Below, piece after piece: positions 8,467-20,867 of a stretch of DNA of 64,000 bases. The position numbers were made by a program, and so were the translations under genes. Origin of the DNA: a virus; IMG/VR virus record IMGVR_UViG_3300033141_000124, positions 46,544 to 110,543 of that record; one strand, given 5' to 3'. The notes below the pieces were generated by a model, which saw only the letters and a list, made by a program, of their open reading frames with translations, made no database searches and had not been told where the DNA came from. Positions within the stretch are counted from its first letter, which is position 1. Each line of letters begins with the position of its first letter.

Positions 8467-8514
8467 ATGGAACCAGATTATGAATGGATGTGGGAAGTAG
8501 AAAACGCTAGATAA
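8467..8514 (+). CDS. Possible 15-aa leader peptide coupled to primase
   Basis: MEPDYEWMWEVENAR*; its TAA overlaps the primase ATG (TAATG). Confidence 0.35.
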   Translation: MEPDYEWMWEVENAR

Positions 8515-9488
8515 TGTTTAGTACTAAGAATTTAGTTCTACACCCATCAGACGTACCAAGCTATTGGGTATTTCAGTATTACTTAAATTTATCAGAGGCT
8601 CTTGTGGGCCAAGACATCAAGATTAAATCCATCTTTAATCCTAATGAGAGAACACCAAGCTTTTGTATTTATGTTGATAAAGCAGCAATGCAATATAAGT
8701 TTAAAGATTTCTCAACAGGTAAGAGTGGTAACAAGGTAGATCTTGTAAAGATGATGTTTAACATAGACTTTCCTATGGCATCTCAAAAGATTACTAATGA
8801 TTATAATGCACATGTCAAAGCTGGAGGATTCAAATCCCAACAGCTAACACCTCAACCAAAGTGGGAAGTTCAGTTCATAAAAGATACTGAGTGGACAGAA
8901 GCAGATGCTTCATTCTGGTTGCAGTTCAATATTGGTAAGAGTATACTTGATAAGTATAACGTTAAACCAATTGAGTATTATAACTTAGTAAAAGAAGAGA
9001 ACTATAAGGTTAAGAGTCTTAAGATAGAAGGTAAGTATATGTATGGTTATTATGATAAGGATGGTGATGTATATAAAATATACCAGCCATATAGTAAACA
9101 TAAGTTTCATAAAGTTAAAAGCTATCTGCAGGGATATGATCAGTTACAATATAATCAGCCGTATCTAGTGATATGTGCTTCTCTTAAAGATGCAATGTGT
9201 CTTGCTAGCATTGGTTATAATGTAGAGACTATTGCTCCTGATAGTGAGAATACTATGATTAAACCACACATAATAGAATACTTTAAAAAGAAATACAAAA
9301 AAGTTATAACTCTTCTAGATAATGATGAGGCCGGTAAGAAAGCTATAGATAGATATAGATCTATGTATAGAATAGATGGTCTTGTATTACCTATTTGTAA
9401 AGATATATCAGATGCTGTTAAGAAGATAGGTGTAAGCCAAGTTCATCAGAATCTAAGACCTTTACTCAAAGAAATACTAAATAAATAA
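8514..9488 (+). CDS. DNA primase (TOPRIM), crAss-like type
   Basis: ERTPSF and FKDFSTG (Cys-less zinc-binding-like domain); SLKDAM, APDSEN, LLDNDEAG, KDISD. Confidence 0.85.
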   Translation: MFSTKNLVLHPSDVPSYWVFQYYLNLSEALVGQDIKIKSIFNPNERTPSFCIYVDKAAMQYKFKDFSTGKSGNKVDLVKMMFNIDFPMASQKITNDYNAHVKAGGFKSQQLTPQPKWEVQFIKDTEWTEADASFWLQFNIGKSILDKYNVKPIEYYNLVKEENYKVKSLKIEGKYMYGYYDKDGDVYKIYQPYSKHKFHKVKSYLQGYDQLQYNQPYLVICASLKDAMCLASIGYNVETIAPDSENTMIKPHIIEYFKKKYKKVITLLDNDEAGKKAIDRYRSMYRIDGLVLPICKDISDAVKKIGVSQVHQNLRPLLKEILNK

Positions 9489-9490
9489 TT

Positions 9491-9880
9491 ATGATGAAAC
9501 ATAGATGGTTTATACCCGGTAATGTACCTAGTAGTAAGAATGGTAGAAGATGGACTGGTAAGTATTTTATTGCTAGCAAAGCTGTAATGAATTATAGAAA
9601 GGCTAGTAAAGAGTACTATGCTAAGTATGCTGAAGACTTCAGAAAAGAAGTTGATAAGCTTACTTCACCAGTTAGAATAAGTTTTGAGTTTATCAGAGGG
9701 ACTAGACATAAGTTTGATTATATTAACCCTGCACAAACAGTACAGGATGATATGGTTAAGCACGGATGGATAGAAGATGATAATGCAGAGTTTATTATAC
9801 CAGACTTCAAACAGTATTCTTATGACAAAGAGAACCCCGGTGTATGGATAGAATTAATATTAGATGAAGAAGAAATCTAG
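9491..9880 (+). CDS. RusA-like Holliday junction resolvase
   Basis: VPSSKN, FDYIN, VQDDMV, IEDDN, DKENPG. Confidence 0.75.
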   Translation: MMKHRWFIPGNVPSSKNGRRWTGKYFIASKAVMNYRKASKEYYAKYAEDFRKEVDKLTSPVRISFEFIRGTRHKFDYINPAQTVQDDMVKHGWIEDDNAEFIIPDFKQYSYDKENPGVWIELILDEEEI

Positions 9881-10178
9881 AAAGATAATAACAATAGATG
9901 AGTTTTTTACTCTAAGGGATATGTTCAGTGGAAGCAAAGAAGATGCAGCTATAGCACTAGCTATATACCAAGAACAGTATCAAGATAAAGATATATTAGA
10001 CAGGTTAATGTGTAAAGCTTTGATGTTTAAAGAGAGAGTTGACTTTTCTATTGCAGTTCAGTATACATTTCAGATGGGAATGTCTGATATGGATACCAAG
10101 AACATATATGCCTATATAGATATAAATAAAATGGATGAAATATATAATGAAATACTTAATAAAATAACAGATGATTAA
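9864..10178 (+). CDS. Small helical protein, first gene of the vWA/MoxR module
   Basis: 104-aa ORF overlapping both neighbours; LRDMFSGSKEDAAIAL motif. Confidence 0.7.
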   Translation: MKKKSRKIITIDEFFTLRDMFSGSKEDAAIALAIYQEQYQDKDILDRLMCKALMFKERVDFSIAVQYTFQMGMSDMDTKNIYAYIDINKMDEIYNEILNKITDD

Positions 10179-11334
10179 TATTCAAGATAGTGTTGCAAAG
10201 GCAACCAAGACTTTAATATTTTCTGAGCCCTTGTACGGGCTCTTTTTGATTGGTATCAATAAGAAATATAGCATACTTATACCTACAGCAGGTGTAAGTA
10301 AGAATAATATTGGAGTACAATTAACTATAAACCCTGAGTTCTTTACAGACTTATCACCTGATCATAGGTTAGGTCTAATAAAGCATGAGCTATTACATAT
10401 AGCATTTGGGCATTTAGTTCTTAGATCCAGATATGCAGACAAGAAACTATTTAATATTGCTGCAGACTTAGAGATCAATCAATATATAAGAGCAGATAGA
10501 TTACCAGAGGGTGGTTTATTGCTCAGTAGTTTTCCTGAATTAGACTTAGAGAAGAAGAAAGGTACTAACTATTACTATGAGAAACTGTTAGAAGCACAAC
10601 AGGATGGAACGTCTCCAACATTAGATTCTTTGATGAGTCAGATGCAAGGAGAAACACCATATTGTCACACTACATGGGATGACTTTAATGATATGTCAGA
10701 GGCTGATAAGAAACTATTACAAAAACAAATAGAACATCAGCTAAAAGAGGCAGCACAACAGACCATAAAGAAGTGTGGTAATATACCGGGAGAGCTTAAG
10801 AATATTATAGATAGAATTTTGCATGTTGAACCACCAAAGTTTGATTGGAAAGGATATCTAAAAAGATTTGTAGGCAACTCTAGTATAGTATATACTAAAA
10901 AGCTGAGACGTAAGTATAATAAAAGATACTCAGCTAATCCAGGTCTTAAGATTAAATTCAAGAATCATATTCTTGTTGGTGTTGACACAAGTGGATCAGT
11001 AAATAATGATGAGCTAAAAGAATTCTTTAGTGAGCTTACGCATATGCATAAGACAGGTCATAAGATTACAGTGGCTCAGTGTGATACTAAACTACATACT
11101 GTCAAAGAGTTTAATCCAAAAAGAGATTGGGAAATACATGGTCGTGGTGGGACTAGCTTCCAACCAGTAATTGATCATTATAATGAGAAGAGGAGTAGAT
11201 ATACTGCTTTAATATATTTAACAGATGGTGAGGCTTATGCTCCAGAGAACTGTCCAAACAATACGTTATGGGTACACAGTTCAAACTGTAGTATAAATGA
11301 AGAGTTACCAGGAAAGAAAATTCAACTTAATTAA
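10171..11334 (+). CDS. Metallopeptidase + vWA domain protein (DUF2201-like)
   Basis: HELLH zincin motif, NIAADLEINQ; MIDAS elements VDTSGS, GGTSF, YLTDG. Confidence 0.9.
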   Translation: MINIQDSVAKATKTLIFSEPLYGLFLIGINKKYSILIPTAGVSKNNIGVQLTINPEFFTDLSPDHRLGLIKHELLHIAFGHLVLRSRYADKKLFNIAADLEINQYIRADRLPEGGLLLSSFPELDLEKKKGTNYYYEKLLEAQQDGTSPTLDSLMSQMQGETPYCHTTWDDFNDMSEADKKLLQKQIEHQLKEAAQQTIKKCGNIPGELKNIIDRILHVEPPKFDWKGYLKRFVGNSSIVYTKKLRRKYNKRYSANPGLKIKFKNHILVGVDTSGSVNNDELKEFFSELTHMHKTGHKITVAQCDTKLHTVKEFNPKRDWEIHGRGGTSFQPVIDHYNEKRSRYTALIYLTDGEAYAPENCPNNTLWVHSSNCSINEELPGKKIQLN

Positions 11335-11343
11335 TAAAAGAAA

Positions 11344-12615
11344 ATGGCACAAGTAAATTTAAATGTAACAGAACTTAAAGGATTTATTAATCACATTATT
11401 ACTAACAACAGATTTTTACAGAAGGACGGTAAGAACTCTGTATCTGTTGAGGTTGTAGGTGAATCAGGTATTGGTAAAACTTCAAGTATATTAGAACTAG
11501 CAAAAGAAAATAAACTAAACTTTGTAAAACTTAATCTAGCACAGATTGAGGAGCTAGGTGATCTTGTTGGTTTCCCAGTGCGTCAATTCCAGATGTACAA
11601 AGAGAAGACTATCACTAAACCAGCAAATAACTTAGCTATGGTCACAGCTACACAAAGAGCTGCTGGAGCAAGCCTTGCTAACTTAAATACCACAACTACA
11701 ACTAAGAAAGTAGGTATGTGGGTTGATGAGCTAGCAGTACAAGAGTATCTAAAGAATGGATACAAGATGACTGGTAAGAATAGAATGTCTTATTGTGCAC
11801 CAGAATGGATTGCAGATAAGAAAGAAGGTGGTATCCTACTACTAGATGACTGGAACCGTGCTGATGTAAGGTTTATTCAAGCAGTTATGGAATTAGTGGA
11901 CCGTCAGAGTTATATCTCATGGACATTACCAAAAGACTGGCACATAATTTTGACAGCAAACCCAGACAACGGAGATTATATGGTTAACAGTGTTGACTCA
12001 GCACAGAAGACTAGATATGTAACCGCTAACTTGAAGTTTGATGTTAATGTATGGGCAGCATGGGCAGAGGAAGCAGGGATTGATACTAGATGTATCAACT
12101 TCCTGTTGCTTCACCCAGAGTTAGTAACTCAAGAAACAAATGCAAGATCTATTACAACATTCTTCAATGCTATATCAAGCTTTGATAGTTTTGAAGATAA
12201 TCTATCTATGATCCAAATGATTGGTGAGGGTAGTGTTGGAGATGCATTTGCTTCTATGTTTACTACATTTATTAATAACAAATTGGACAAGCTTGTTACA
12301 CCTAAAGATTTATTGACACATGATAATGAACAATATATTCTTAATGAGCTTAGATCTTGTATTGGTAAAGATGATTCATACCGTGCAGATATTGCATCTA
12401 CATTAGCTACAAGACTTGGTAATTATTCTGTAGTATATTCTAAAGATAATACTATTAACCAGAAGATTACTGATAGACTTAAAGCTCTGTGTACACTAGA
12501 TTATTTTACTAATGATCTACAGTATCTTATTGTTAGAACCATCTTTAATGGTAATAAAAGTAAATTTAATAAACTAATGATGATCCCTGAGATTGTCAAA
12601 ATGACTATGAAATAA
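11344..12615 (+). CDS. MoxR-like AAA+ ATPase
   Basis: GESGIGKT, LLLDDWNRA, ILTANP, DSAQKTR; adjacent to the vWA gene. Confidence 0.88.
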   Translation: MAQVNLNVTELKGFINHIITNNRFLQKDGKNSVSVEVVGESGIGKTSSILELAKENKLNFVKLNLAQIEELGDLVGFPVRQFQMYKEKTITKPANNLAMVTATQRAAGASLANLNTTTTTKKVGMWVDELAVQEYLKNGYKMTGKNRMSYCAPEWIADKKEGGILLLDDWNRADVRFIQAVMELVDRQSYISWTLPKDWHIILTANPDNGDYMVNSVDSAQKTRYVTANLKFDVNVWAAWAEEAGIDTRCINFLLLHPELVTQETNARSITTFFNAISSFDSFEDNLSMIQMIGEGSVGDAFASMFTTFINNKLDKLVTPKDLLTHDNEQYILNELRSCIGKDDSYRADIASTLATRLGNYSVVYSKDNTINQKITDRLKALCTLDYFTNDLQYLIVRTIFNGNKSKFNKLMMIPEIVKMTMK

Positions 12616-12616
12616 A

Positions 12617-13666
12617 ATGGCAAAGAAGACAGTATATCAACAATTTAATACTGATGCTTTAAAACATTTTGGGCTTGATGGTGACTCTAAATACGGAGTC
12701 ATCGTCAACCATAGTGTGGAAGAAGTACTAGTTACACAAGATGTAACTACATATGAAAAAATACATTCTATATTGTATAAGGATACGGTTACTGATCAGA
12801 CATTACAAATGTACAAGAAAGCTTTTGTACTGCCTAACAGTGAGGTATCACTTGACAGAATTAAAGCTGCATTAAGAGAGCATAAGATTACAGTTACTAA
12901 TGATTATGAGCTAGCAGATCTTATAGTTACACATGGTAGATTCTCTGGAAGACAATTACAAAATGGTGAGAATATTCCAACTACATCTATGATGTCTAAG
13001 CTATGGAACTATGAAACTACTATAGAAGGTTCTATAAGTCAGAGTTCATCACCTATAAATAGTTTAATCCAGAACTATGATGGTCCAGTTATTATAGATG
13101 AAAAGATCACTAAAAGGATTAGATATTATGATTTAGAGACTGATGAAGCTTTGTATGATAATTGGATGATTACAGGTCTTGCAGTTAACATAGCTCATCT
13201 TATAGATACAGGTTCATTAGATGTTGTAGACGTTGGAACAGTATTGCATAGTTCAGCAAATAGATGTATATTAGATGAAGAATTATTAAGTGATATAATT
13301 GCTCAAGTTAATTCTCATAATAATGATGATGTAGCTTTGGCAGGTAAGATTATTCCTACCATAGATTATACTAAAAATCTGCATCTGTTCTGGGTTTTGA
13401 CTCAAGAATGTTATAGAATAACCCATGCTTATAATAGAGATAAAGATATTCAGTACTGGTTGAGTCAGTCAAACTTTAGTAAGATATCTGATTTTAATGC
13501 AGAGGCTATGATATTATATCTAGAGGAGGAAGGACTATTGGATTCTAAAGCATTTAGATATTTAGAACCAAGAGTAAGAAGTGAGATAACAATACACAAT
13601 AGAGACTTGTATGTATTTAAAGTCTCTGTAAAGAAAGAATACCAAAAATATTTAAAAAATGTATAA
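12617..13666 (+). CDS. Hypothetical protein, putative BRCT-like + helical domain
   Basis: KKAFVLPNSEVSLDRIK...KITVTNDYELADLIV; SHNNDDVALA. Confidence 0.6.
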   Translation: MAKKTVYQQFNTDALKHFGLDGDSKYGVIVNHSVEEVLVTQDVTTYEKIHSILYKDTVTDQTLQMYKKAFVLPNSEVSLDRIKAALREHKITVTNDYELADLIVTHGRFSGRQLQNGENIPTTSMMSKLWNYETTIEGSISQSSSPINSLIQNYDGPVIIDEKITKRIRYYDLETDEALYDNWMITGLAVNIAHLIDTGSLDVVDVGTVLHSSANRCILDEELLSDIIAQVNSHNNDDVALAGKIIPTIDYTKNLHLFWVLTQECYRITHAYNRDKDIQYWLSQSNFSKISDFNAEAMILYLEEEGLLDSKAFRYLEPRVRSEITIHNRDLYVFKVSVKKEYQKYLKNV

Positions 13667-14807
13667 TTATTATAAAATAAGTTTAAGCGTAAATAGCAAA
13701 GAATCATATACTTCAAATCAACTTAATGCACAGTCATTTAATTTAGATAAAGAAGGTATATTTTTATATAACACTAGCAACTGGCATCTTACAACAGAGG
13801 ATGCTAAGATGTTAGGTCTTTCAATATCCGGTGAAAAGCTAGATATACAAGGCAAAACTATATATAGATACCCAAAGTTGTCATTACCTAGACAGAAGGT
13901 GGACTTATTAAAAGGTTCATATGATGTTAAGGTATCAAGAAATCCTGTTACTGCTGATATTCATGTAGTATCAACAAAGTTTATTGAGAGTCTTGTTAAG
14001 TACAACTGGAATCCTGCATTCTCAAAGAGAAGAGTCTATGAGATGTTTATTAAAATGAGAGAGAAGGATTTGTTACATGAAGATCTTATGCCAAGCATAC
14101 GTAAGATGTTAGAAGATACTCACAATAGTGATATGTTTGCAATTGATATACCATATGCATATAATAACACATTTCATGGTCAGAAGGCTAATCATGTCCA
14201 GGATGTAAATGATATTATATCAGAAACTAAAAAGACTGCATTACATCAGAGATGTGGTATCATAGCAGATCCAGCTAAGATTAAACTATTTAATCAGCTT
14301 ACTAAGACTACAGCTAATATAGTATTAGATACAGAGATTAGTAAAAAGATTGATGAAAGTTTAGTAACTCTTGGAGAAGAAGACTATGTTAACCTTACTA
14401 CACAGATAAGAAGTGATAATATAGATGATAGAAGTGTTGCATTAGAGATGATGGCTAACTGTAATCTTGAAGAGTCATTTGATATTGTAACTATGATATA
14501 TTATTTTAACTTTGAGTATTGTAAGTCAACTTCAAATTGGAATACAGTAAATGTAAAAGCAATGAAGAATAGACTTACTGAGATAGCAGGAGGATGTCAG
14601 AGAGCACAAGGATTTACTTATAATAGGCTTGTAAATTTTCTTATTAAACAAGGTAAGTTAACTCCATTTGTTATTAAAACTTGTAAGGATATGATACATA
14701 AACATGTATTGAAAGCCAATGCGTTAAATGACATATGGAAGATAGATATGGAAAGTATATATCTTAATGAGGATTTACAAAAACATATAATAGAAAAAGA
14801 TGCATAA
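13659..14807 (+). CDS. Hypothetical protein, putative BRCT-like + helical domain; likely paralog of the preceding gene
   Basis: GKTIYRYPKLSLPRQKV...DVKVSRNPVTADIHVV; SDNIDDRSVALEMMAN. Confidence 0.6.
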   Translation: MYNYYKISLSVNSKESYTSNQLNAQSFNLDKEGIFLYNTSNWHLTTEDAKMLGLSISGEKLDIQGKTIYRYPKLSLPRQKVDLLKGSYDVKVSRNPVTADIHVVSTKFIESLVKYNWNPAFSKRRVYEMFIKMREKDLLHEDLMPSIRKMLEDTHNSDMFAIDIPYAYNNTFHGQKANHVQDVNDIISETKKTALHQRCGIIADPAKIKLFNQLTKTTANIVLDTEISKKIDESLVTLGEEDYVNLTTQIRSDNIDDRSVALEMMANCNLEESFDIVTMIYYFNFEYCKSTSNWNTVNVKAMKNRLTEIAGGCQRAQGFTYNRLVNFLIKQGKLTPFVIKTCKDMIHKHVLKANALNDIWKIDMESIYLNEDLQKHIIEKDA

Positions 14808-15792
14808 AGATGAAAAGAAAGAGGAAGAGTTCTATGCAAATAAAGATTTTTGCTTTAGCTATTCCTCTTTAAATAAACTTATATTTTCTCCTTATTTATT
14901 TTATAAGGACTATATACTACAGGATCGTGAGATTAAAACAGATAAACATTTGATAGAAGGGAAGCTATTGCATTGTTTGATGTTTGAACCAGAAAGCTTT
15001 GATAAGAAGTTTGAGCTGGTTCCTGATAAACTTCCTAGTGATAACATACGTAAAGTCTTAAAAGATATGACATTCCATACAGATGCAAAGACCCTTGCTG
15101 ATTGTGAAGAGTTTGTTATATTAGACTCACTCAAGTCTATGAATCTATATCAATCTTTAAAAGCTGATGAAGCTAGATTAAATAAGATTAGAACTGAAGA
15201 AGCAGAAATGTATTGGAAGTTTATAAATAATAGAGATAAAGATGTAATAGACAGAGATACATTTGATAGAGTTGGTGTTAGTATAAATTACCTGAAGAAT
15301 AATGAAGAGGTACTAGATATACTAGTAAATGATGCACCAACAGATTTTGATTTAGATCCAGTTACATATTACAAAGAACAATATCTTAAATCAGAATTAG
15401 TTGACTGTGATTTTGGTTTACATGGTTATGTAGATTTCTATAAAGTAGATACTGATAAGAAAGAAGTTACTATAGTTGACTTGAAGACAACAGGTAAAAC
15501 TGTTTCAGACTTCAAAGAGACAATTGACTTCTATAATTATTGGTTACAAGCAGCTATATATATGAAGTTAGTATATGATTCTCTTGGAGATGATAGAGAT
15601 GAATACAAGATACAATTTAAGTTCATAGTAATAGATAAATACTATCAAGTATATGTGTTTGATGTCACTGATCAGACAATAAATGACTGGGCAGATGGCT
15701 TTGCGGGTGTATTAAATGTAGCAAAATTCCACTATAATAGCAGAAATTACTCTCTTCCAATGGATATGTTAGTAAATAAGGTTAAATTATAG
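14800..15792 (+). CDS. PD-(D/E)XK exonuclease (RecE/ExoVIII-like)
   Basis: FSYSSL, GKLLHC, HGYVDF...IVDLKTT, YWLQAAIY. Confidence 0.85.
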   Translation: MHKDEKKEEEFYANKDFCFSYSSLNKLIFSPYLFYKDYILQDREIKTDKHLIEGKLLHCLMFEPESFDKKFELVPDKLPSDNIRKVLKDMTFHTDAKTLADCEEFVILDSLKSMNLYQSLKADEARLNKIRTEEAEMYWKFINNRDKDVIDRDTFDRVGVSINYLKNNEEVLDILVNDAPTDFDLDPVTYYKEQYLKSELVDCDFGLHGYVDFYKVDTDKKEVTIVDLKTTGKTVSDFKETIDFYNYWLQAAIYMKLVYDSLGDDRDEYKIQFKFIVIDKYYQVYVFDVTDQTINDWADGFAGVLNVAKFHYNSRNYSLPMDMLVNKVKL

Positions 15793-15793
15793 T

Positions 15794-16366
15794 ATGGGAG
15801 TATATACAGAATATTTTCAGAAGAGTAAGGTCTTCTTGTATCCTTTATTAAAGTTTAGGAAGGGACTGAAATATGTTCCTTCTCAAACTTATATTGGGTG
15901 GAGTGACGTTTATGAGACTGAAGATATGATGTTTCTATGTTTATATAATACAAAGTTAACAGACTCTTTTAATGTATTTGCAAAGAGGCATCTAATACCC
16001 CATCCTATGTACAGAGCTTTTACTTCTTTATCAGAGAAAGAACAGCTGTTTATGTTTGACTTTAGTAGATTCAAAAATGATTGGAAAAGATTTATAGATG
16101 GTAAATACTCTCAGTTTAGTTTATCAACCAAAGTAACTATATTAGATTACTTTGATGATAAGAAAACTGTAAATTATATACAAGGGTTTTTATCTCCAGA
16201 AGATGTACATGAAGAATATGCTAATAAACTTAATGTTAAACTAGATATACTACAAAAAGTACATGAGGTATGTACTGCACCAGACTTGGAAAAAGAAATT
16301 TTAGTTGATAATAATTATGTTTTGTATCAATTATTAAAAGAAAGTTCCATATCTTTGACAAAATAA
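15794..16366 (+). CDS. Hypothetical protein
   Basis: 190-aa ORF; KSKVFLYPLL and FIDGKYSQFS blocks. Confidence 0.75.
   Translation: MGVYTEYFQKSKVFLYPLLKFRKGLKYVPSQTYIGWSDVYETEDMMFLCLYNTKLTDSFNVFAKRHLIPHPMYRAFTSLSEKEQLFMFDFSRFKNDWKRFIDGKYSQFSLSTKVTILDYFDDKKTVNYIQGFLSPEDVHEEYANKLNVKLDILQKVHEVCTAPDLEKEILVDNNYVLYQLLKESSISLTK
16321..16357 (+). promoter_or_regulatory. Candidate Bacteroidota sigma-A promoter
   Basis: TATCTTTG (-7 element) at 16350, 20 nt upstream of ATG 16377; upstream TTTG has a long spacer. Confidence 0.45.
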
Positions 16367-16376
16367 ATAAACCAAT

Positions 16377-16793
16377 ATGGCACAAATAGGTCAGAATATG
16401 ATGTTAGTTCATTCCACATTTAGGAATGCTAAATCATTTACATTAATTCCAGTGAGTCAAGACTCACCATATGTAGAAGCTATGTTTGATCCTGCATCAG
16501 GCATCTTAGCTGTTATCAGTAAAGTAATGAAACAATCTTATCACATGGTTCCTAAATTAGATGATGAAGGTCAACCAATGAGATTAAAGAAACCAAACAT
16601 GCAAACTGGTAAGACTGTAAAAGAAGAGAGAAGATTAGTAGATACATTCTCTGAATTTTATCTTAATGATAAAACTGATATAGAAACTTTTATTCATATG
16701 TTTGCTGTGAATGCAGATACATTTGATTATAAAGAGTACTTTGTTGATGTAAAGGAGACTAAAACATCACCAATTATTTTACCTGGTCAATAG
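16377..16793 (+). CDS. Hypothetical protein
   Basis: 138-aa ORF with A-rich leader. Confidence 0.75.
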   Translation: MAQIGQNMMLVHSTFRNAKSFTLIPVSQDSPYVEAMFDPASGILAVISKVMKQSYHMVPKLDDEGQPMRLKKPNMQTGKTVKEERRLVDTFSEFYLNDKTDIETFIHMFAVNADTFDYKEYFVDVKETKTSPIILPGQ

Positions 16794-18865: not shown

Positions 18866-19090
18866 ATGCAATTAGGAGATTTAGAAAAAGGAAAAAAGTT
18901 CAGAATCAAAAAAAAAGAACATTATATAGGAAAACCACCAGAGAATCTATTCAGTTCAGATGGATCTGTTATAAAAGGAGAAGTCTTAACATATGAGGAG
19001 AAGGATGGTATGTACTGTATTTGTTCAGATCATGAGGGTAATAAGTTTAATTACCCATCATGGTCTAATATTATACCAATAGATGATTAA
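18866..19090 (+). CDS. Hypothetical protein
   Basis: 74-aa ORF packed between PolB and the radical SAM gene. Confidence 0.65.
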   Translation: MQLGDLEKGKKFRIKKKEHYIGKPPENLFSSDGSVIKGEVLTYEEKDGMYCICSDHEGNKFNYPSWSNIIPIDD

Positions 19091-19916
19091 AGTACAACAA
19101 ACCAAAACTTTAGTTACAAAACCCAATAACAATAGTGCAAACTGCATAGCTCCCAACTTAATCTATGGTTGCTTTGGTGGCTGTGTAGACACTTATTGTT
19201 ATATGTCCAGGTATAATGGGCGTAGAGTATTTGTAAATAAGAATGTAGATGACATATTTAAGTCTGTTGTTGAATGGGAAAAGACATATATCAAAGAACC
19301 AGACCAACAAGACCCTATATATACTATGGTAGATATTGCATGTAACTCAGACTTAGTTCTGATGCAGAAACATATGCCTGAATCTTTACATGACTATTTA
19401 AAGCGTTATGATGACCATCCACAACTTAACAGTACTATGGCTACAAAGTATCCAAGTCTTCTTAAACTGGATGTAAATCACTTTAACAAGGCTCCTAGAG
19501 TCAGAGTAAGCCTCATGCCCCAGGTTTACTCTAATATATTAGAACCTAAGATGCAAAAGATATCTAGTAGAATAAAAGATATTAATAGACTAAAGAACTT
19601 AGGCTGGGAAGTACACTGTAATTATAGTCCATTAGTCTTCTATCCAGGTTGGAAAGAAGAGTATAATGACCTATTTGCTGAAGTAAATGCATATGCAGGA
19701 GTAAATAAGTGTGAAGTTATAGCTTTAACTAATCATAAAAATCAAATGGCTAAGGCAACACCAGAAGCCCAGGAACTAATGAGACGTTCTTATGAAGTAA
19801 AGAATGCGTCAGGAGTTATGAGATATCCTTTAAAACACAAAACTAGATTGCTAGCAGAGTTTAAAGAGATATATAAACAATATTTTCCATTAAATACAAT
19901 AAGATATATATTTTAA
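19083..19916 (+). CDS. Spore photoproduct lyase-like radical SAM protein
   Basis: GCFGGCVDTYCY cluster motif; IACNSD (SplB CTSD-like), ATKY, RVRVSL. Confidence 0.85.
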   Translation: MIKVQQTKTLVTKPNNNSANCIAPNLIYGCFGGCVDTYCYMSRYNGRRVFVNKNVDDIFKSVVEWEKTYIKEPDQQDPIYTMVDIACNSDLVLMQKHMPESLHDYLKRYDDHPQLNSTMATKYPSLLKLDVNHFNKAPRVRVSLMPQVYSNILEPKMQKISSRIKDINRLKNLGWEVHCNYSPLVFYPGWKEEYNDLFAEVNAYAGVNKCEVIALTNHKNQMAKATPEAQELMRRSYEVKNASGVMRYPLKHKTRLLAEFKEIYKQYFPLNTIRYIF

Positions 19917-19970: not shown

Positions 19971-20867
19971 ATGGGACATTCAAAACCAATAGAAACAACC
20001 AGGTGGCATCTAGAAAATGCACCTTTACCTAACCACGGTAATACTTACACTGTAGTACCACATAGTGAAGTTATAGCTAATACTTTTAAATTATTAGCTG
20101 ATAGCGGATTTATGGTAACTAGAGAGATATATAGAGCTAGCAAGAATGCAAGTGTAGCTCAAGGGGTATATCATATATACCCTGAACAAACAACTGATAT
20201 AGATATAGAGAATGAAAAGGAACTAGGAATGATGTTTGCCTGGACAAACTCTTATGATAAGTCTAAAAGCTTTGTGTGTGCAATTGGTGCATATGTACAA
20301 GTTTGTTATAATGGTATGTTATGTGGAGACATGATGAACTACAAAAGAAAGCATAGATGGTCAGCATCCAGAGATATCTATATGCATATGTCAGATCAGA
20401 TTAAGAATGGTGAGAAATATTATAAGAGATTAATAAAGGATAAAGAGTCTATGAAGAACGTTAACCTAAGCTTCAGAGAACAAGCTGAGCTTGCAGGACG
20501 TTTGTTTATACAAGAACAATTAGTCAATACTCATCAGTTAGCATGCATAAAGAGGGAATTAGAAAAGCCGTCATATGATTATAATTGCTCTAGAGAAACT
20601 GCTTGGGCCTTTTATAATAACGTAACCCATGCACTAAAGCAAACTCACCCACGTGAGTGGCTTAATGACCAACAGAACTTTCATGATTTCTTTACAGTAG
20701 AGCTACAGGGATCACCTGCTAGCAAACAAATGTTTGAGAAACCTCAAGAGTATGAAGACTTAGGGGATCCGTCACAGATTATTGTAGATGAGCATGCAGA
20801 TATGATAGTTGAAGTCAATGAGGAGACACTACAGATGGACATAGACTTTGAAGAGATAGAGATATGA
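19971..20867 (+). CDS. DUF932-like protein
   Basis: YTVVPH, NSYDKSKS, VCYNGML, KRKH, TAWAFYNNVT. Confidence 0.75.
   Translation: MGHSKPIETTRWHLENAPLPNHGNTYTVVPHSEVIANTFKLLADSGFMVTREIYRASKNASVAQGVYHIYPEQTTDIDIENEKELGMMFAWTNSYDKSKSFVCAIGAYVQVCYNGMLCGDMMNYKRKHRWSASRDIYMHMSDQIKNGEKYYKRLIKDKESMKNVNLSFREQAELAGRLFIQEQLVNTHQLACIKRELEKPSYDYNCSRETAWAFYNNVTHALKQTHPREWLNDQQNFHDFFTVELQGSPASKQMFEKPQEYEDLGDPSQIIVDEHADMIVEVNEETLQMDIDFEEIEI

What the first reader, a model, noticed from the sequence alone, without database searches (positions are those of the whole stretch)
9864..14807. Five-gene vWA-peptidase / MoxR module with three related partner proteins, two of them BRCT-like
Seen in the sequence: five tightly packed genes (104 aa; HELLH peptidase-vWA; MoxR-type AAA+; 349 aa; 382 aa) inside the replication block. 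The three unknown proteins share a helical motif: IDEFFTLRDMFSGSKEDAAIAL, LDEELLSDIIAQVNSHNNDDVALA and LGEEDYVNLTTQIRSDNIDDRSVAL. The two larger ones also share an N-terminal block (KKAFVLPNSEVSLDRIK..KITVTNDYELADLIV vs KTIYRYPKLSLPRQKV..DVKVSRNPVTADIHVV) with a BRCT-like beta-alpha-beta pattern. Established: MoxR ATPases work with vWA adaptors, and ternary MoxR-vWA conflict systems are known in bacteria. Inference: a phage ATP-dependent remodelling/proteolysis machine whose partners dock through the shared helix and recognise host targets (BRCT folds bind phosphopeptides, DNA ends or poly-ADP-ribose), possibly for counter-defence or host takeover.
Basis: partly seen in the sequence, partly recalled or inferred. 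Interest (0 to 1): 0.8.

Follow-up and report, generated by a model that had tools for sequence, protein, structure and literature searches.

The report
Phage MoxR-vWA protease with BRCT-like partners
An uncultured marine crAss-like phage carries a known but functionally unexplained ATPase plus protease/vWA gene pair, flanked by three related proteins of an undescribed family (two with a BRCT-like fold), and the closest bacterial copy of the pair has partners with the same signature, so these proteins probably work with the pair.

Summary
Five + strand genes lie at 9864-14807: a 104-aa protein, a zincin-vWA protein (Pfam DUF2201_N + DUF2201; HExxH and MIDAS residues invariant), an AAA_5/MoxR-like ATPase, and proteins of 349 and 382 aa.

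- **Paralogy:** profile comparison shows the 349- and 382-aa proteins are paralogues (93.8%, E 1.7e-7, 280 columns). The 104-aa protein matches their helical module more weakly (78%, E 1.8e-5).
- **Fold:** AlphaFold models (pLDDT 88 and 86) show a BRCT-like domain with a large insert, then ARM/HEAT-like helices. BRCT support is fold-level only (Z 5-6.7).
- **Synteny:** all 84 related phage loci keep the gene order, but so does the whole replication block, so this is weak evidence.
- **Independent evidence:** the closest cellular homologue, on a Chondrinema (Bacteroidota) megaplasmid, has the same vWA-then-ATPase order. It is followed by two partners carrying the same helical module, one with a Pfam BRCT hit.

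Function is untested. My best reading is an ATP-driven remodelling/proteolysis engine with exchangeable, fast-evolving adaptors. The ATPase/vWA pair is already known (N4 gp24/gp25, jumbo phages); the partner family is not described. This scan has noted the same module before on other marine phage genomes.

The parts
9864..10178 (+). p104: small helical partner protein. Residues 3-58 (nt 9870-10037) are a stand-alone copy of the helical module shared with p349 and p382.
   Evidence: ORF. No Pfam or PHROG hit. Family alignment A6 has invariant D27 and R58. Profile match to p382 residues 236-281, Prob 78, E 1.8e-5, and to p349 residues 212-259, E 5.9e-4.
10171..11334 (+). Zincin-like metallopeptidase (residues about 46-238, HELLH) fused to a vWA/MIDAS domain (residues about 268-377).
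   Evidence: PF13203 at 6e-19, PF09967 at 3e-16, phrog_1314 at 4e-66. H72, E73, H76, H81, D99, N103 and the MIDAS residues D272, S274, S276, T328 and D352 are invariant across eight divergent phage homologues.
11344..12615 (+). AAA+ ATPase of the AAA_5 (MoxR/midasin/dynein-related) clade. It has an insert of about 60 aa between Walker A and Walker B, and a Walker B that reads DD rather than DE.
   Evidence: phrog_1297 at 6e-35. Pfam AAA_5 scores only 13.7 bits for the window protein. The family profile's best PDB match is midasin, 9e-8. The family HMM hits the ATPases next to DUF2201 genes in other phages and plasmids; the Chondrinema one (2e-78) passes Pfam AAA_5 at 41.7 bits. Motifs are shown.
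12617..13666 (+). p349: partner protein. It has an N-terminal beta-hairpin/helix unit, a BRCT-like domain with a large insert (residues about 61-216, nt 12797-13264), then an ARM/HEAT-like helical domain beginning with the shared module (residues 213-268, nt 13253-13420).
   Evidence: AF2 model with pLDDT 88.2, pTM 0.78. VIA-align BRCT matches: XRCC1 Z 6.7, MCPH1 Z 6.7, bacterial LigA BRCT Z 6.0, PARP1 Z 5.5; generic alpha/beta folds score 4.5 or less. ARM/HEAT matches at Z 6-6.7 for residues 217-293. BFVD hits in crAss-like viruses at E 3e-7 to 4e-6.
13659..14807 (+). p382: paralogue of p349 and the fastest-evolving gene of the block. BRCT-like domain with insert (residues about 62-234, nt 13842-14360), then the helical domain with the shared module (residues 232-290, nt 14352-14528).
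   Evidence: AF2 model with pLDDT 86.2. About 35 of the 50 top VIA-align rows are BRCT domains, Z 4-5.6. Paralogy with p349: Prob 93.8, E 1.7e-7. The family has 890 cluster representatives at E <= 1e-3. Median identity to the window across 81 loci is 32%.

Best explanation
The five genes are one functional module. Its core is an ATP-driven engine: an AAA_5/MoxR-like ATPase plus a partner protein that joins a zincin metallopeptidase to a vWA/MIDAS domain. This pair is inherited together in many phages and plasmids. In this phage lineage the engine has three paralogous accessory proteins, which share a specific helix-loop-helix module at the start of an ARM/HEAT-like domain. Two of them also carry a BRCT-like domain.

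My inference is that the shared helical module ties the accessory proteins to the engine. The variable remainder (the BRCT-like domain here, LRRs in the bacterial version) would select the target, which the ATPase then remodels or extracts and the peptidase may cut.

What is shown: the domain identities, the paralogy, and the recurrence of engine plus tagged partners in a phage lineage and in a bacterial megaplasmid. What is inferred: docking through the module, the adaptor role rather than a substrate role, and the nature of the target. The target could be a DNA-bound or phosphorylated protein, of phage or host.
For: **Core pair**
- Pfam and PHROG assignments, with invariant HExxH and MIDAS residues.
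- ATPase motifs and its midasin/AAA_5 affinity.
- The ATPase family HMM finds the ATPase next to the DUF2201 gene in N4-like phage FSL SP-076 (1e-12), Alteromonas phage AD45-P1 (1.6e-9), Moorella phage (3e-8), an Arcobacter plasmid (1.4e-16) and a Pontibacillus plasmid (2.3e-14). The pair is therefore co-inherited.

**Partners form one family**
- Profile comparisons with negative controls and shuffles.
- The two AF2 models have parallel secondary structure from about residue 60 onward.

**Link between partners and engine**
- The genes flank the pair in all 84 related phage loci, down to 23% identity for p382.
- The closest cellular homologue of the pair is on a Chondrinema litorale megaplasmid: vWA at 36.5% identity, E 9e-69; HMM scores 5e-87 and 2e-78. 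It has the same vWA-then-ATPase order and no replication genes nearby.
- It is followed by a 937-aa LRR protein and a 475-aa protein with a Pfam BRCT hit exactly at threshold (21.3 bits, E 3e-4).
- Both align to the phage helical module: Prob 72, E 3.3e-5 over 124 columns, and Prob 39, E 3e-4.
- A module-only HMM run over 599 ORFs from 12 loci scores only these two proteins. It does not score a genuine 10-repeat LRV/HEAT protein.
- A six-frame search of the whole 524-kb plasmid gives a single match, inside the 937-aa gene.

**Evolutionary rate**
- The partners evolve much faster than the engine. Median identity is p382 32%, p104 45% and p349 56%, against ATPase 86% and vWA 77%. This fits target-facing adaptors.
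Against: - No experiment bears on this module, and no complex prediction could be run.
- Within the phage clade the whole replication block is syntenic, so co-occurrence there is not independent evidence.
- The independent bacterial support rests on one plasmid examined here, with modest profile scores (E 3e-5 to 1e-3).
- Other DUF2201/ATPase loci have no detectable tagged partner: N4-like phages, AD45-P1, Moorella phage, phiFa, and plasmids of Synechocystis, Cupriavidus, Burkholderia and Arcobacter. The partners are therefore not a universal part of the engine.
- BRCT similarity is fold-level only, with middling Z (5-6.7). The tool warns that Z below 8 can reflect only a common arrangement.
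- Neither the vWA protein nor the ATPase contains the module, so the docking could not be homotypic.
- The partners could be substrates rather than adaptors.
Confidence: 0.55

Rival explanations
1. Virion-assembly chaperone. The MoxR ATPase and metallopeptidase-vWA pair folds, assembles and trims structural proteins, as Iyer et al. 2021 proposed for group 2.2 jumbo phages by analogy with the MoxR-vWA pair needed for tail development of Acidianus two-tailed virus. The partner proteins would be assembly adaptors.
For: This is the published proposal for the same domain pair in jumbo phages (PMC7824862). The peptidase motif is intact.
Against: - Here the genes sit among replication and recombination genes on the + strand arm: DnaB-like helicase, Sak4, primase, RusA, PD-(D/E)XK nuclease and PolB. 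They are not among the large genes on the opposite strand, which I did not annotate.
- Close homologues of the pair, with tagged partners, occur on a bacterial megaplasmid with no virion genes nearby.
- BRCT-like domains are not known from virion assembly (my own knowledge).
Confidence: 0.1
2. The two BRCT-like proteins, and perhaps p104, are replication or recombination scaffolds of the phage. They would bind DNA ends or nicks, or recruit host factors such as ligase or clamp. They sit beside the ATPase/vWA pair only because the whole block is conserved, so there is no five-gene machine.
For: - The block is packed and syntenic well beyond the five genes.
- Neighbours are RusA and a PD-(D/E)XK exonuclease.
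- Structural matches include the DNA-binding BRCT class: bacterial LigA Z 6.0, PARP1 Z 5.5, RFC1 Z 5.0.
- No ligase or clamp loader was found among the + strand genes 588-20867 that I scanned.
Against: The Chondrinema operon couples the same engine to BRCT/module partners outside any replication context. Related proteins flank both sides of the pair in the phage, which is hard to explain by drift of unrelated genes.

This rival and the best explanation can both be partly true. The engine may act at DNA ends, with the BRCT-like proteins as its targeting subunits.
Confidence: 0.2
3. The partners are substrates or pro-proteins of the engine rather than adaptors. The vWA-peptidase would bind the shared module and cleave or unfold them, to activate or remove them in a timed way.
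For: A shared recognition module on several proteins, next to a protease with an intact active site, fits this as well as it fits the adaptor reading.
Against: Nothing tested here separates it from the adaptor reading. The fast evolution of the non-module parts is more typical of target-facing surfaces.
Confidence: 0.12

Closest known systems
Coliphage N4 gp24 (AAA ATPase) and gp25 (vWFA protein), with their relatives in N4-like phages (Schitoviridae) and other phages: PHROG 1297 + PHROG 1314, Pfam DUF2201_N + DUF2201
   Same: The same two families sit side by side. The window proteins hit phrog_1297 (6e-35) and phrog_1314 (4e-66). tblastn finds the vWA-peptidase in 458 phage records, mostly N4-like and jumbo phages. 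In FSL SP-076 a MoxR-like ATPase lies directly upstream. N4 gp24 and gp25 are listed as ATPase and vWFA protein of unknown function in PMC2784036.
   Different: - The order here is vWA then ATPase; in N4-like phages, AR9 (by tblastn coordinates) and the Moorella phage it is ATPase then vWA.
- The ATPase carries an insert of about 60 aa and a DD Walker B.
- The pair is flanked by three related BRCT-like/helical partners that were not detected at those phages' loci.
MoxR AAA+ / metallopeptidase-vWA chaperone-cochaperone pair of group 2.2 jumbo phages (Iyer, Anantharaman, Krishnan, Burroughs, Aravind 2021, Viruses 13:63)
   Same: The same domain architecture is described in print: a MoxR ATPase plus a vWA protein with an N-terminal metallopeptidase.
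   Different: That paper proposes virion assembly. In the passages I read it mentions no BRCT or helical-repeat partners. Here the context is replication, and a tagged partner family is present.
MoxR-vWA ternary conflict systems (VMAP and iSTAND types; Kaur, Burroughs, Iyer, Aravind 2020, eLife 9:e52696)
   Same: There is a MoxR + vWA core plus a variable third component. The accessory components diverge rapidly. The idea of small shared adaptor domains (EADs) linking core and effector proteins resembles the shared helical module here.
   Different: - The third component here is not a VMAP or an inactive STAND protein.
- The peptidase is fused N-terminally to the vWA domain, rather than effectors fused C-terminally.
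- The module is not found in the core proteins.
- PADLOC models give no hit.
Midasin (Rea1/Mdn1): an AAA_5-type ring with a MIDAS domain that pulls assembly factors off pre-ribosomes
   Same: It is the best solved-structure match of the ATPase family (E 9e-8). It shares the logic of an AAA_5 motor working with a MIDAS/vWA domain that grips a ligand protein (my own knowledge).
   Different: Midasin is a single giant eukaryotic polypeptide with six AAA modules. The similarity covers only the P-loop region of single modules, and midasin has no peptidase.
BRCT domains (bacterial LigA, PARP1, RFC1, XRCC1, MCPH1)
   Same: They are the dominant structural matches for residues 61-216 of p349 and 62-234 of p382. 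About 70-80 residues align at 3-3.5 A, Z 5-6.7.
   Different: - There is no sequence-level match.
- A large insert splits the domain.
- The canonical Ser/Thr-Gly after strand 1 reads Pro-Asn/Lys. This comes from my reading of alignments A1 and A2, not from a structural superposition.

Membership tests
DUF2201_N + DUF2201 (zincin metallopeptidase fused to a vWA-like domain; COG3864) | Both Pfam domains above their gathering scores, in the order peptidase then vWA | tested here: met
   PF13203 scores 69.1 bits (cut-off 23.2) at residues 46-238. PF09967 scores 60.1 bits (cut-off 26.4) at residues 268-377.
DUF2201_N + DUF2201 (zincin metallopeptidase fused to a vWA-like domain; COG3864) | HExxH zinc site and MIDAS DxSxS...T...D residues present and conserved | tested here: met
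   H72, E73, H76, D272, S274, S276, T328 and D352 are invariant in alignment A7 of eight divergent phage homologues.
MoxR / AAA_5 clade of AAA+ ATPases | Pfam AAA_5 (PF07728) or AAA_3 above the gathering score | tested here: not met
   The window protein scores AAA_5 at 13.7 bits against a cut-off of 22. Its close homologue on the Chondrinema plasmid (family HMM 2e-78) scores 41.7 bits. The window protein has an insert of about 60 aa between Walker A and B that the homologue lacks.
MoxR / AAA_5 clade of AAA+ ATPases | Walker A GxxGxGK[ST]; Walker B followed by the NRA motif; sensor-1 region | tested here: met
   GESGIGKT, LLLDDWNRAD and LTANPD are invariant in the clade. Walker B reads DD where most relatives have DE. 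The Chondrinema homologue shares this DD.
MoxR / AAA_5 clade of AAA+ ATPases | Adjacent vWA-domain partner gene | tested here: met
   The vWA gene ends 9 nt upstream of the ATPase gene. The pairing recurs in ten other phage and plasmid loci examined; at an eleventh, a Vibrio phage, no ATPase was found next to the vWA gene.
BRCT domain | Sequence-profile match (Pfam PF00533 or related) | tested here: not met
   There is no BRCT hit for p349 or p382 at E <= 0.1. None was found among 121 family members at E <= 1, and none in PDB profile searches. Only the bacterial partner Chon_475 hits PF00533, at 21.3 bits, which equals the cut-off.
BRCT domain | Three-layer alpha/beta fold with a four-stranded parallel sheet that superposes on solved BRCT domains | tested here: inconclusive
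   BRCT chains dominate both lists. For p349: Z 6.7 (3qvg_B, rmsd 3.5, 78 aa), 6.7 (MCPH1) and 6.0 (LigA). For p382: about 35 of 50 rows at Z 4-5.6. Generic alpha/beta folds score 4.5 or less. The pattern is consistent and supportive, but Z below 8 is in the range the tool calls common.
BRCT domain | Phosphate-binding Ser/Thr-Gly after strand 1, plus Lys in helix 2 | tested here: inconclusive
   Read from the sequence, the position after strand 1 is Pro-Asn in p349 and Pro-Lys in p382, with the Pro conserved in A1 and A2. I had no residue-level structural alignment, so the assignment of positions is mine.
ARM/HEAT/LRV helical repeats | Stacked helix-turn-helix repeats that match solved repeat proteins or Pfam repeat models | tested here: inconclusive
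   Residues 217-293 of p349 and 240-311 of p382 match beta-catenin, STAG1, Pds5B and importin at Z 4-6.7. This is low for helical repeats. Five of 121 family members give weak hits to the HEAT-like PF08713, best 0.01. The module HMM does not score a true LRV protein.
VMAP or iSTAND MoxR-vWA ternary conflict systems (Kaur et al. 2020) | Third component carrying a VMAP-C domain or an inactive STAND NTPase | tested here: inconclusive
   No profile of VMAP-C was at hand. The partners show no P-loop and no Pfam or PADLOC hit. Their predicted folds are BRCT-like plus helical repeats.

The most novel reading that the evidence does not exclude
The BRCT-like/helical proteins would be exchangeable targeting subunits that plug, through the shared helical module, into a zincin-vWA/AAA_5 engine. 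Together they would form a phage- and plasmid-borne ATP-dependent extraction and proteolysis machine. It would act on proteins bound at DNA ends or nicks, or on phosphorylated or ADP-ribosylated host proteins. That would make it a previously unrecognised class of host-takeover or counter-defence device, whose specificity evolves by swapping and diverging the tagged adaptors.
Probability: 0.2. Interest if true: 0.8.

Novelty: new variant of a known kind. Interest (0 to 1): 0.6.

Why it matters
The ATPase plus peptidase-vWA pair was found in 458 phage records, mostly N4-like and jumbo phages, and on 103 plasmids. No function has been shown for it; the only proposal in print is virion assembly. 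A lineage in which the pair comes with a recognisable, tagged family of partner proteins gives a concrete experimental handle. One can pull down the partners, find what the BRCT-like domains bind, and so learn what the engine acts on.

The same tag appears on the partners of the closest bacterial version. This suggests the module moves between Bacteroidota and their phages as a unit. It also points to a general rule of engine plus tagged adaptors, like the ternary MoxR-vWA systems described in bacteria.

The phage family involved is abundant in marine metagenomes: the p382 family alone has 890 cluster representatives.

Tried and rejected
- **BLASTP** among the three partners found nothing. Only profiles detect the relation.
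- **tblastn** of p349 and p382 against 50,697 phage records gave no match. blastn of the whole region gave no match either.
- **Foldseek against PDB** with both models found nothing significant. The top rows (ketol-acid reductoisomerase for p349, clamp-loader subunits for p382) had TM about 0.12 and I rejected them as noise.
- **ESM Atlas:** no informative neighbour.
- **NCBIfam and PADLOC:** no meaningful hit for any of the five proteins.
- **Sequence-level BRCT test:** negative.
- **Homotypic docking:** I asked whether the vWA protein or the ATPase contains the shared module. They do not.
- **Extra copies:** none of the partner family elsewhere in the 110.5-kb phage genome.
- **Reaching more distant contexts:** Alignment-based scans failed for lack of a conserved stretch. 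Two distant family members gave no IMG/VR locus.
That lead was not reproduced on this one record.
- **Chance similarity** of the motifs: rejected on the shuffles and controls.

Full report
**What is there**

The window is the right-hand 64 kb of a 110,543-bp IMG/VR virus record estimated 96% complete. It has about 33% G+C and a 4,491-aa ORF on the minus strand. Relatives come from marine metagenome contigs of 100-125 kb. A structural search also links it to crAss-like viruses.

The five ORFs of the finding are at the stated coordinates. They lie inside a + strand run of replication and recombination genes:
- SF2 helicase, UDG, DnaB-like helicase, Sak4-like annealing protein, DnaG-type primase and RusA before them;
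- a PD-(D/E)XK exonuclease, family-B polymerase, an SPL-like radical-SAM protein and DUF932 after them.

Every gene from 8514 to 16793 is separated from its neighbour by -17 to +10 nt. Tight packing therefore does not delimit a five-gene unit.

**The core pair**

The 387-aa protein passes Pfam thresholds for DUF2201_N (putative metallopeptidase) and DUF2201 (vWA-like). It hits phrog_1314 at 4e-66; the PHROG label 'HNH endonuclease' is evidently a mis-annotation. In an alignment with seven divergent phage homologues, the HExxH residues and all five MIDAS residues are invariant.

The 423-aa protein hits phrog_1297 (ATPase) at 6e-35, but only sub-threshold Pfam AAA models.
- Its family profile finds midasin AAA modules as the best solved relatives (9e-8).
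- Its family HMM recognises the ATPases encoded next to DUF2201 genes in an N4-like Salmonella phage, Alteromonas phage AD45-P1, a Moorella phage, and plasmids of Chondrinema, Arcobacter and Pontibacillus.
- The Chondrinema and Arcobacter ATPases pass Pfam AAA_5.
- The window ATPase has Walker A, a Walker B reading DD followed by NRAD, and a sensor-1 region. An insert of about 60 aa between Walker A and B explains the missed Pfam threshold.

The pair is known. N4 gp24 and gp25 are listed as ATPase and vWFA protein of unknown function (PMC2784036). Iyer et al. 2021 describe a MoxR plus metallopeptidase-vWA chaperone-cochaperone pair in jumbo phages and propose a role in virion assembly (PMC7824862).

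**The three partners are one family**

BLASTP finds nothing between them, and none has a Pfam, PHROG, NCBIfam or PADLOC hit. Family alignments built from 84 related IMG/VR loci and from a profile search (890 cluster representatives for p382) give clear profile-profile results.
- p349 against p382: Prob 93.8, E 1.7e-7 over 280 columns, from residue about 60 to the C-terminus (my own run).
- p104 residues 7-49 against p382 residues 236-281: Prob 78, E 1.8e-5.
- p104 against p349, at the equivalent site 212-259: Prob 29, E 5.9e-4.
- Controls against the ATPase and vWA families score Prob 2 or less.
- Column-shuffled alignments reached the observed score in at most 1 of 45 trials.

**Folds**

AlphaFold2 models built from the family alignments are confident: p349 has pLDDT 88.2 and p382 has 86.2. 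Their secondary-structure strings run in parallel from about residue 60 onward.

Foldseek against the PDB gives nothing significant. The exhaustive VIA-align search gives two recurring classes for both models.
- **BRCT domains** for residues 61-216 of p349 and 62-234 of p382. About 70-80 residues align at about 3-3.5 A. For p349 the scores are XRCC1 Z 6.7, MCPH1 Z 6.7, bacterial LigA Z 6.0, PARP1 Z 5.5 and RFC1 Z 5.0, while generic Rossmann-like folds score 4.5 or less. For p382 about 35 of 50 rows are BRCT chains at Z 4-5.6.
- **ARM/HEAT repeats** for the stretch that begins with the shared module.

The BRCT core is split by a large insert. Z values of this size are not proof, and there is no sequence-level BRCT signal in the phage proteins. 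I therefore call the domain BRCT-like.

Against predicted viral structures, p349 matches four uncharacterised proteins at E 3e-7 to 4e-6. One is from a crAss-like virus and two are from a single 'Podoviridae sp.' genome. The family, and its duplication, therefore reach beyond the marine clade.

**Are the partners tied to the pair?**

In all 84 related phage loci the order p104, vWA, ATPase, p349, p382 is kept, down to 23% identity for p382. The whole block is equally syntenic, so this says little on its own.

The rates do say something. Median identity to the window is 86% for the ATPase and 77% for the vWA protein. It is 56%, 45% and 32% for p349, p104 and p382, and p382 is the fastest-evolving gene of the block.

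The partners were not detected next to the pair in N4-like phages, AD45-P1, the Moorella phage or phiFa.

Following a lead from earlier notes of this scan, I looked at plasmids. The closest cellular homologue of the vWA-peptidase (36.5% identity, E 9e-69) lies on a 524-kb megaplasmid of the marine Bacteroidota Chondrinema litorale. The locus has no phage or replication genes nearby.
- The gene order is vWA, then ATPase (family HMM 2e-78, also with DD-x-NRAD), then a 937-aa LRR protein, then a 475-aa protein.
- The 475-aa protein hits Pfam BRCT exactly at the gathering score (21.3 bits, E 3e-4) and also carries LRRs.
- The p382 family profile aligns to the 475-aa protein over 124 columns, starting at the shared module (Prob 72, E 3.3e-5). 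It aligns to a 35-residue stretch of the 937-aa protein at 34% identity (Prob 39, E 3e-4).
- An HMM of the module alone, run over 599 ORFs from 12 phage and plasmid loci, scores only these two proteins (8e-5 and 9e-4). It ignores a genuine 10-repeat LRV/HEAT protein that sits next to another vWA/MoxR pair in Allomeiothermus.
- A six-frame search of the entire plasmid with the module alignment returns one match, inside the 937-aa gene.

This is one independent occurrence with modest scores. It is nonetheless the result expected if the tagged proteins belong to the engine.

**Mechanism**

What is shown:
- an intact zincin site, an intact MIDAS site and an AAA_5-type ATPase, inherited together;
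- a family of accessory proteins marked by a specific helical module, two of them with a BRCT-like domain;
- recurrence of engine plus tagged partners in a phage lineage and on a bacterial plasmid;
- fast divergence of the partners.

What I infer, by analogy with MoxR-vWA systems and with midasin (my own knowledge, plus PMC7159879): the vWA/MIDAS protein couples the ATPase to client proteins. The tagged partners act as adaptors that bring a target, which the ATPase remodels and the peptidase may cut.

I could not test whether the module is the docking surface. It does not occur in the core proteins, so any docking is heterotypic. The partners could equally be substrates.

The biological role is open.
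- The replication and recombination setting, and the structural matches to the DNA-binding BRCT class, suggest action at DNA ends or on DNA-bound proteins.
- The fast evolution, and a report that a MoxR ATPase gene of coliphage Bas54 is required to overcome a defence system (PMC13716836), are compatible with counter-defence. I did not examine how that ATPase relates to this one.
- The published virion-assembly proposal fits this genomic context and the plasmid homologue poorly.

**Novelty and verdict**

The pair is known but uncharacterised. MoxR-vWA systems with a variable third component are known in bacteria. I found no description of the BRCT-like/helical partner family or its shared module in the open literature searched.

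This scan has already noted the same module on several other marine phage genomes, with similar follow-up conclusions. I treated those notes as leads only and re-derived the points used here.

I rate it a new variant of a known kind, of moderate to good interest because it makes an old unknown experimentally approachable.

**Limits**
- No multimer prediction was possible.

Noticed in passing
window 11344-12615 (ATPase residues about 80-148): The phage-clade ATPase has an insert of about 60 aa between Walker A and Walker B, including a Thr-rich low-complexity stretch. The Chondrinema homologue and most other relatives lack it; AD45-P1 and Pontibacillus have inserts of their own. Walker B reads DD, not DE, in the phage clade, in Chondrinema and in the Cupriavidus/Burkholderia plasmids.
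   Followed up: partly
L096 5229-5921 (Burkholderia gladioli plasmid bgla_4p); compare L095 (Cupriavidus): On a conjugative Burkholderia plasmid, a 230-aa gene with a DNA polymerase III beta-clamp central domain (PF02767, 3e-9) sits between the ATPase and a 309-aa unknown gene that precedes the DUF2201 vWA gene. The locus lies next to type IV secretion genes.
   Followed up: no
L097 5758-9342 (Allomeiothermus silvanus plasmid pMESIL01): A 394-aa protein made of 10 LRV/HEAT repeats (PF01816, 1e-57) lies directly upstream of a vWA-peptidase and MoxR pair in the same vWA-then-ATPase order. This is another helical-repeat partner, but my phage module profile does not detect it.
   Followed up: partly
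BFVD entries A0A8S5TL70 and A0A8S5TKB2 (Podoviridae sp. ctz6O13) and A0A8S5QMV2 (CrAss-like virus sp. ctYsL76): Structural homologues of p349 at 12-14% identity occur in other crAss-like or podovirus metagenome genomes, twice in one of them. I could not check whether an ATPase/vWA pair lies beside them.
   Followed up: no
window 8514-16793: Ten consecutive + strand genes, from the primase to the 138-aa protein, are separated by -17 to +10 nt, with four overlaps of 8-17 nt. They look like one long translationally coupled unit.
   Followed up: partly
window 19083-19916 and 19971-20867: A spore-photoproduct-lyase-like protein (PF20903, 3e-19) and a DUF932 protein (1e-15) follow the family-B DNA polymerase.
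   Followed up: no
window 10171-11334: phrog_1314, which this protein hits at 4e-66, is labelled 'HNH endonuclease', and many RefSeq phage records carry that name. The protein is a zincin-vWA fusion, so the label appears to be a propagated mis-annotation.
   Followed up: partly
L092 2862-6106 (Arcobacter sp. plasmid p83): Here a 330-aa unknown gene lies between the ATPase and vWA genes. It shows no BRCT or module signal with my profiles. A PD-(D/E)XK nuclease gene lies 2 kb downstream.
   Followed up: partly
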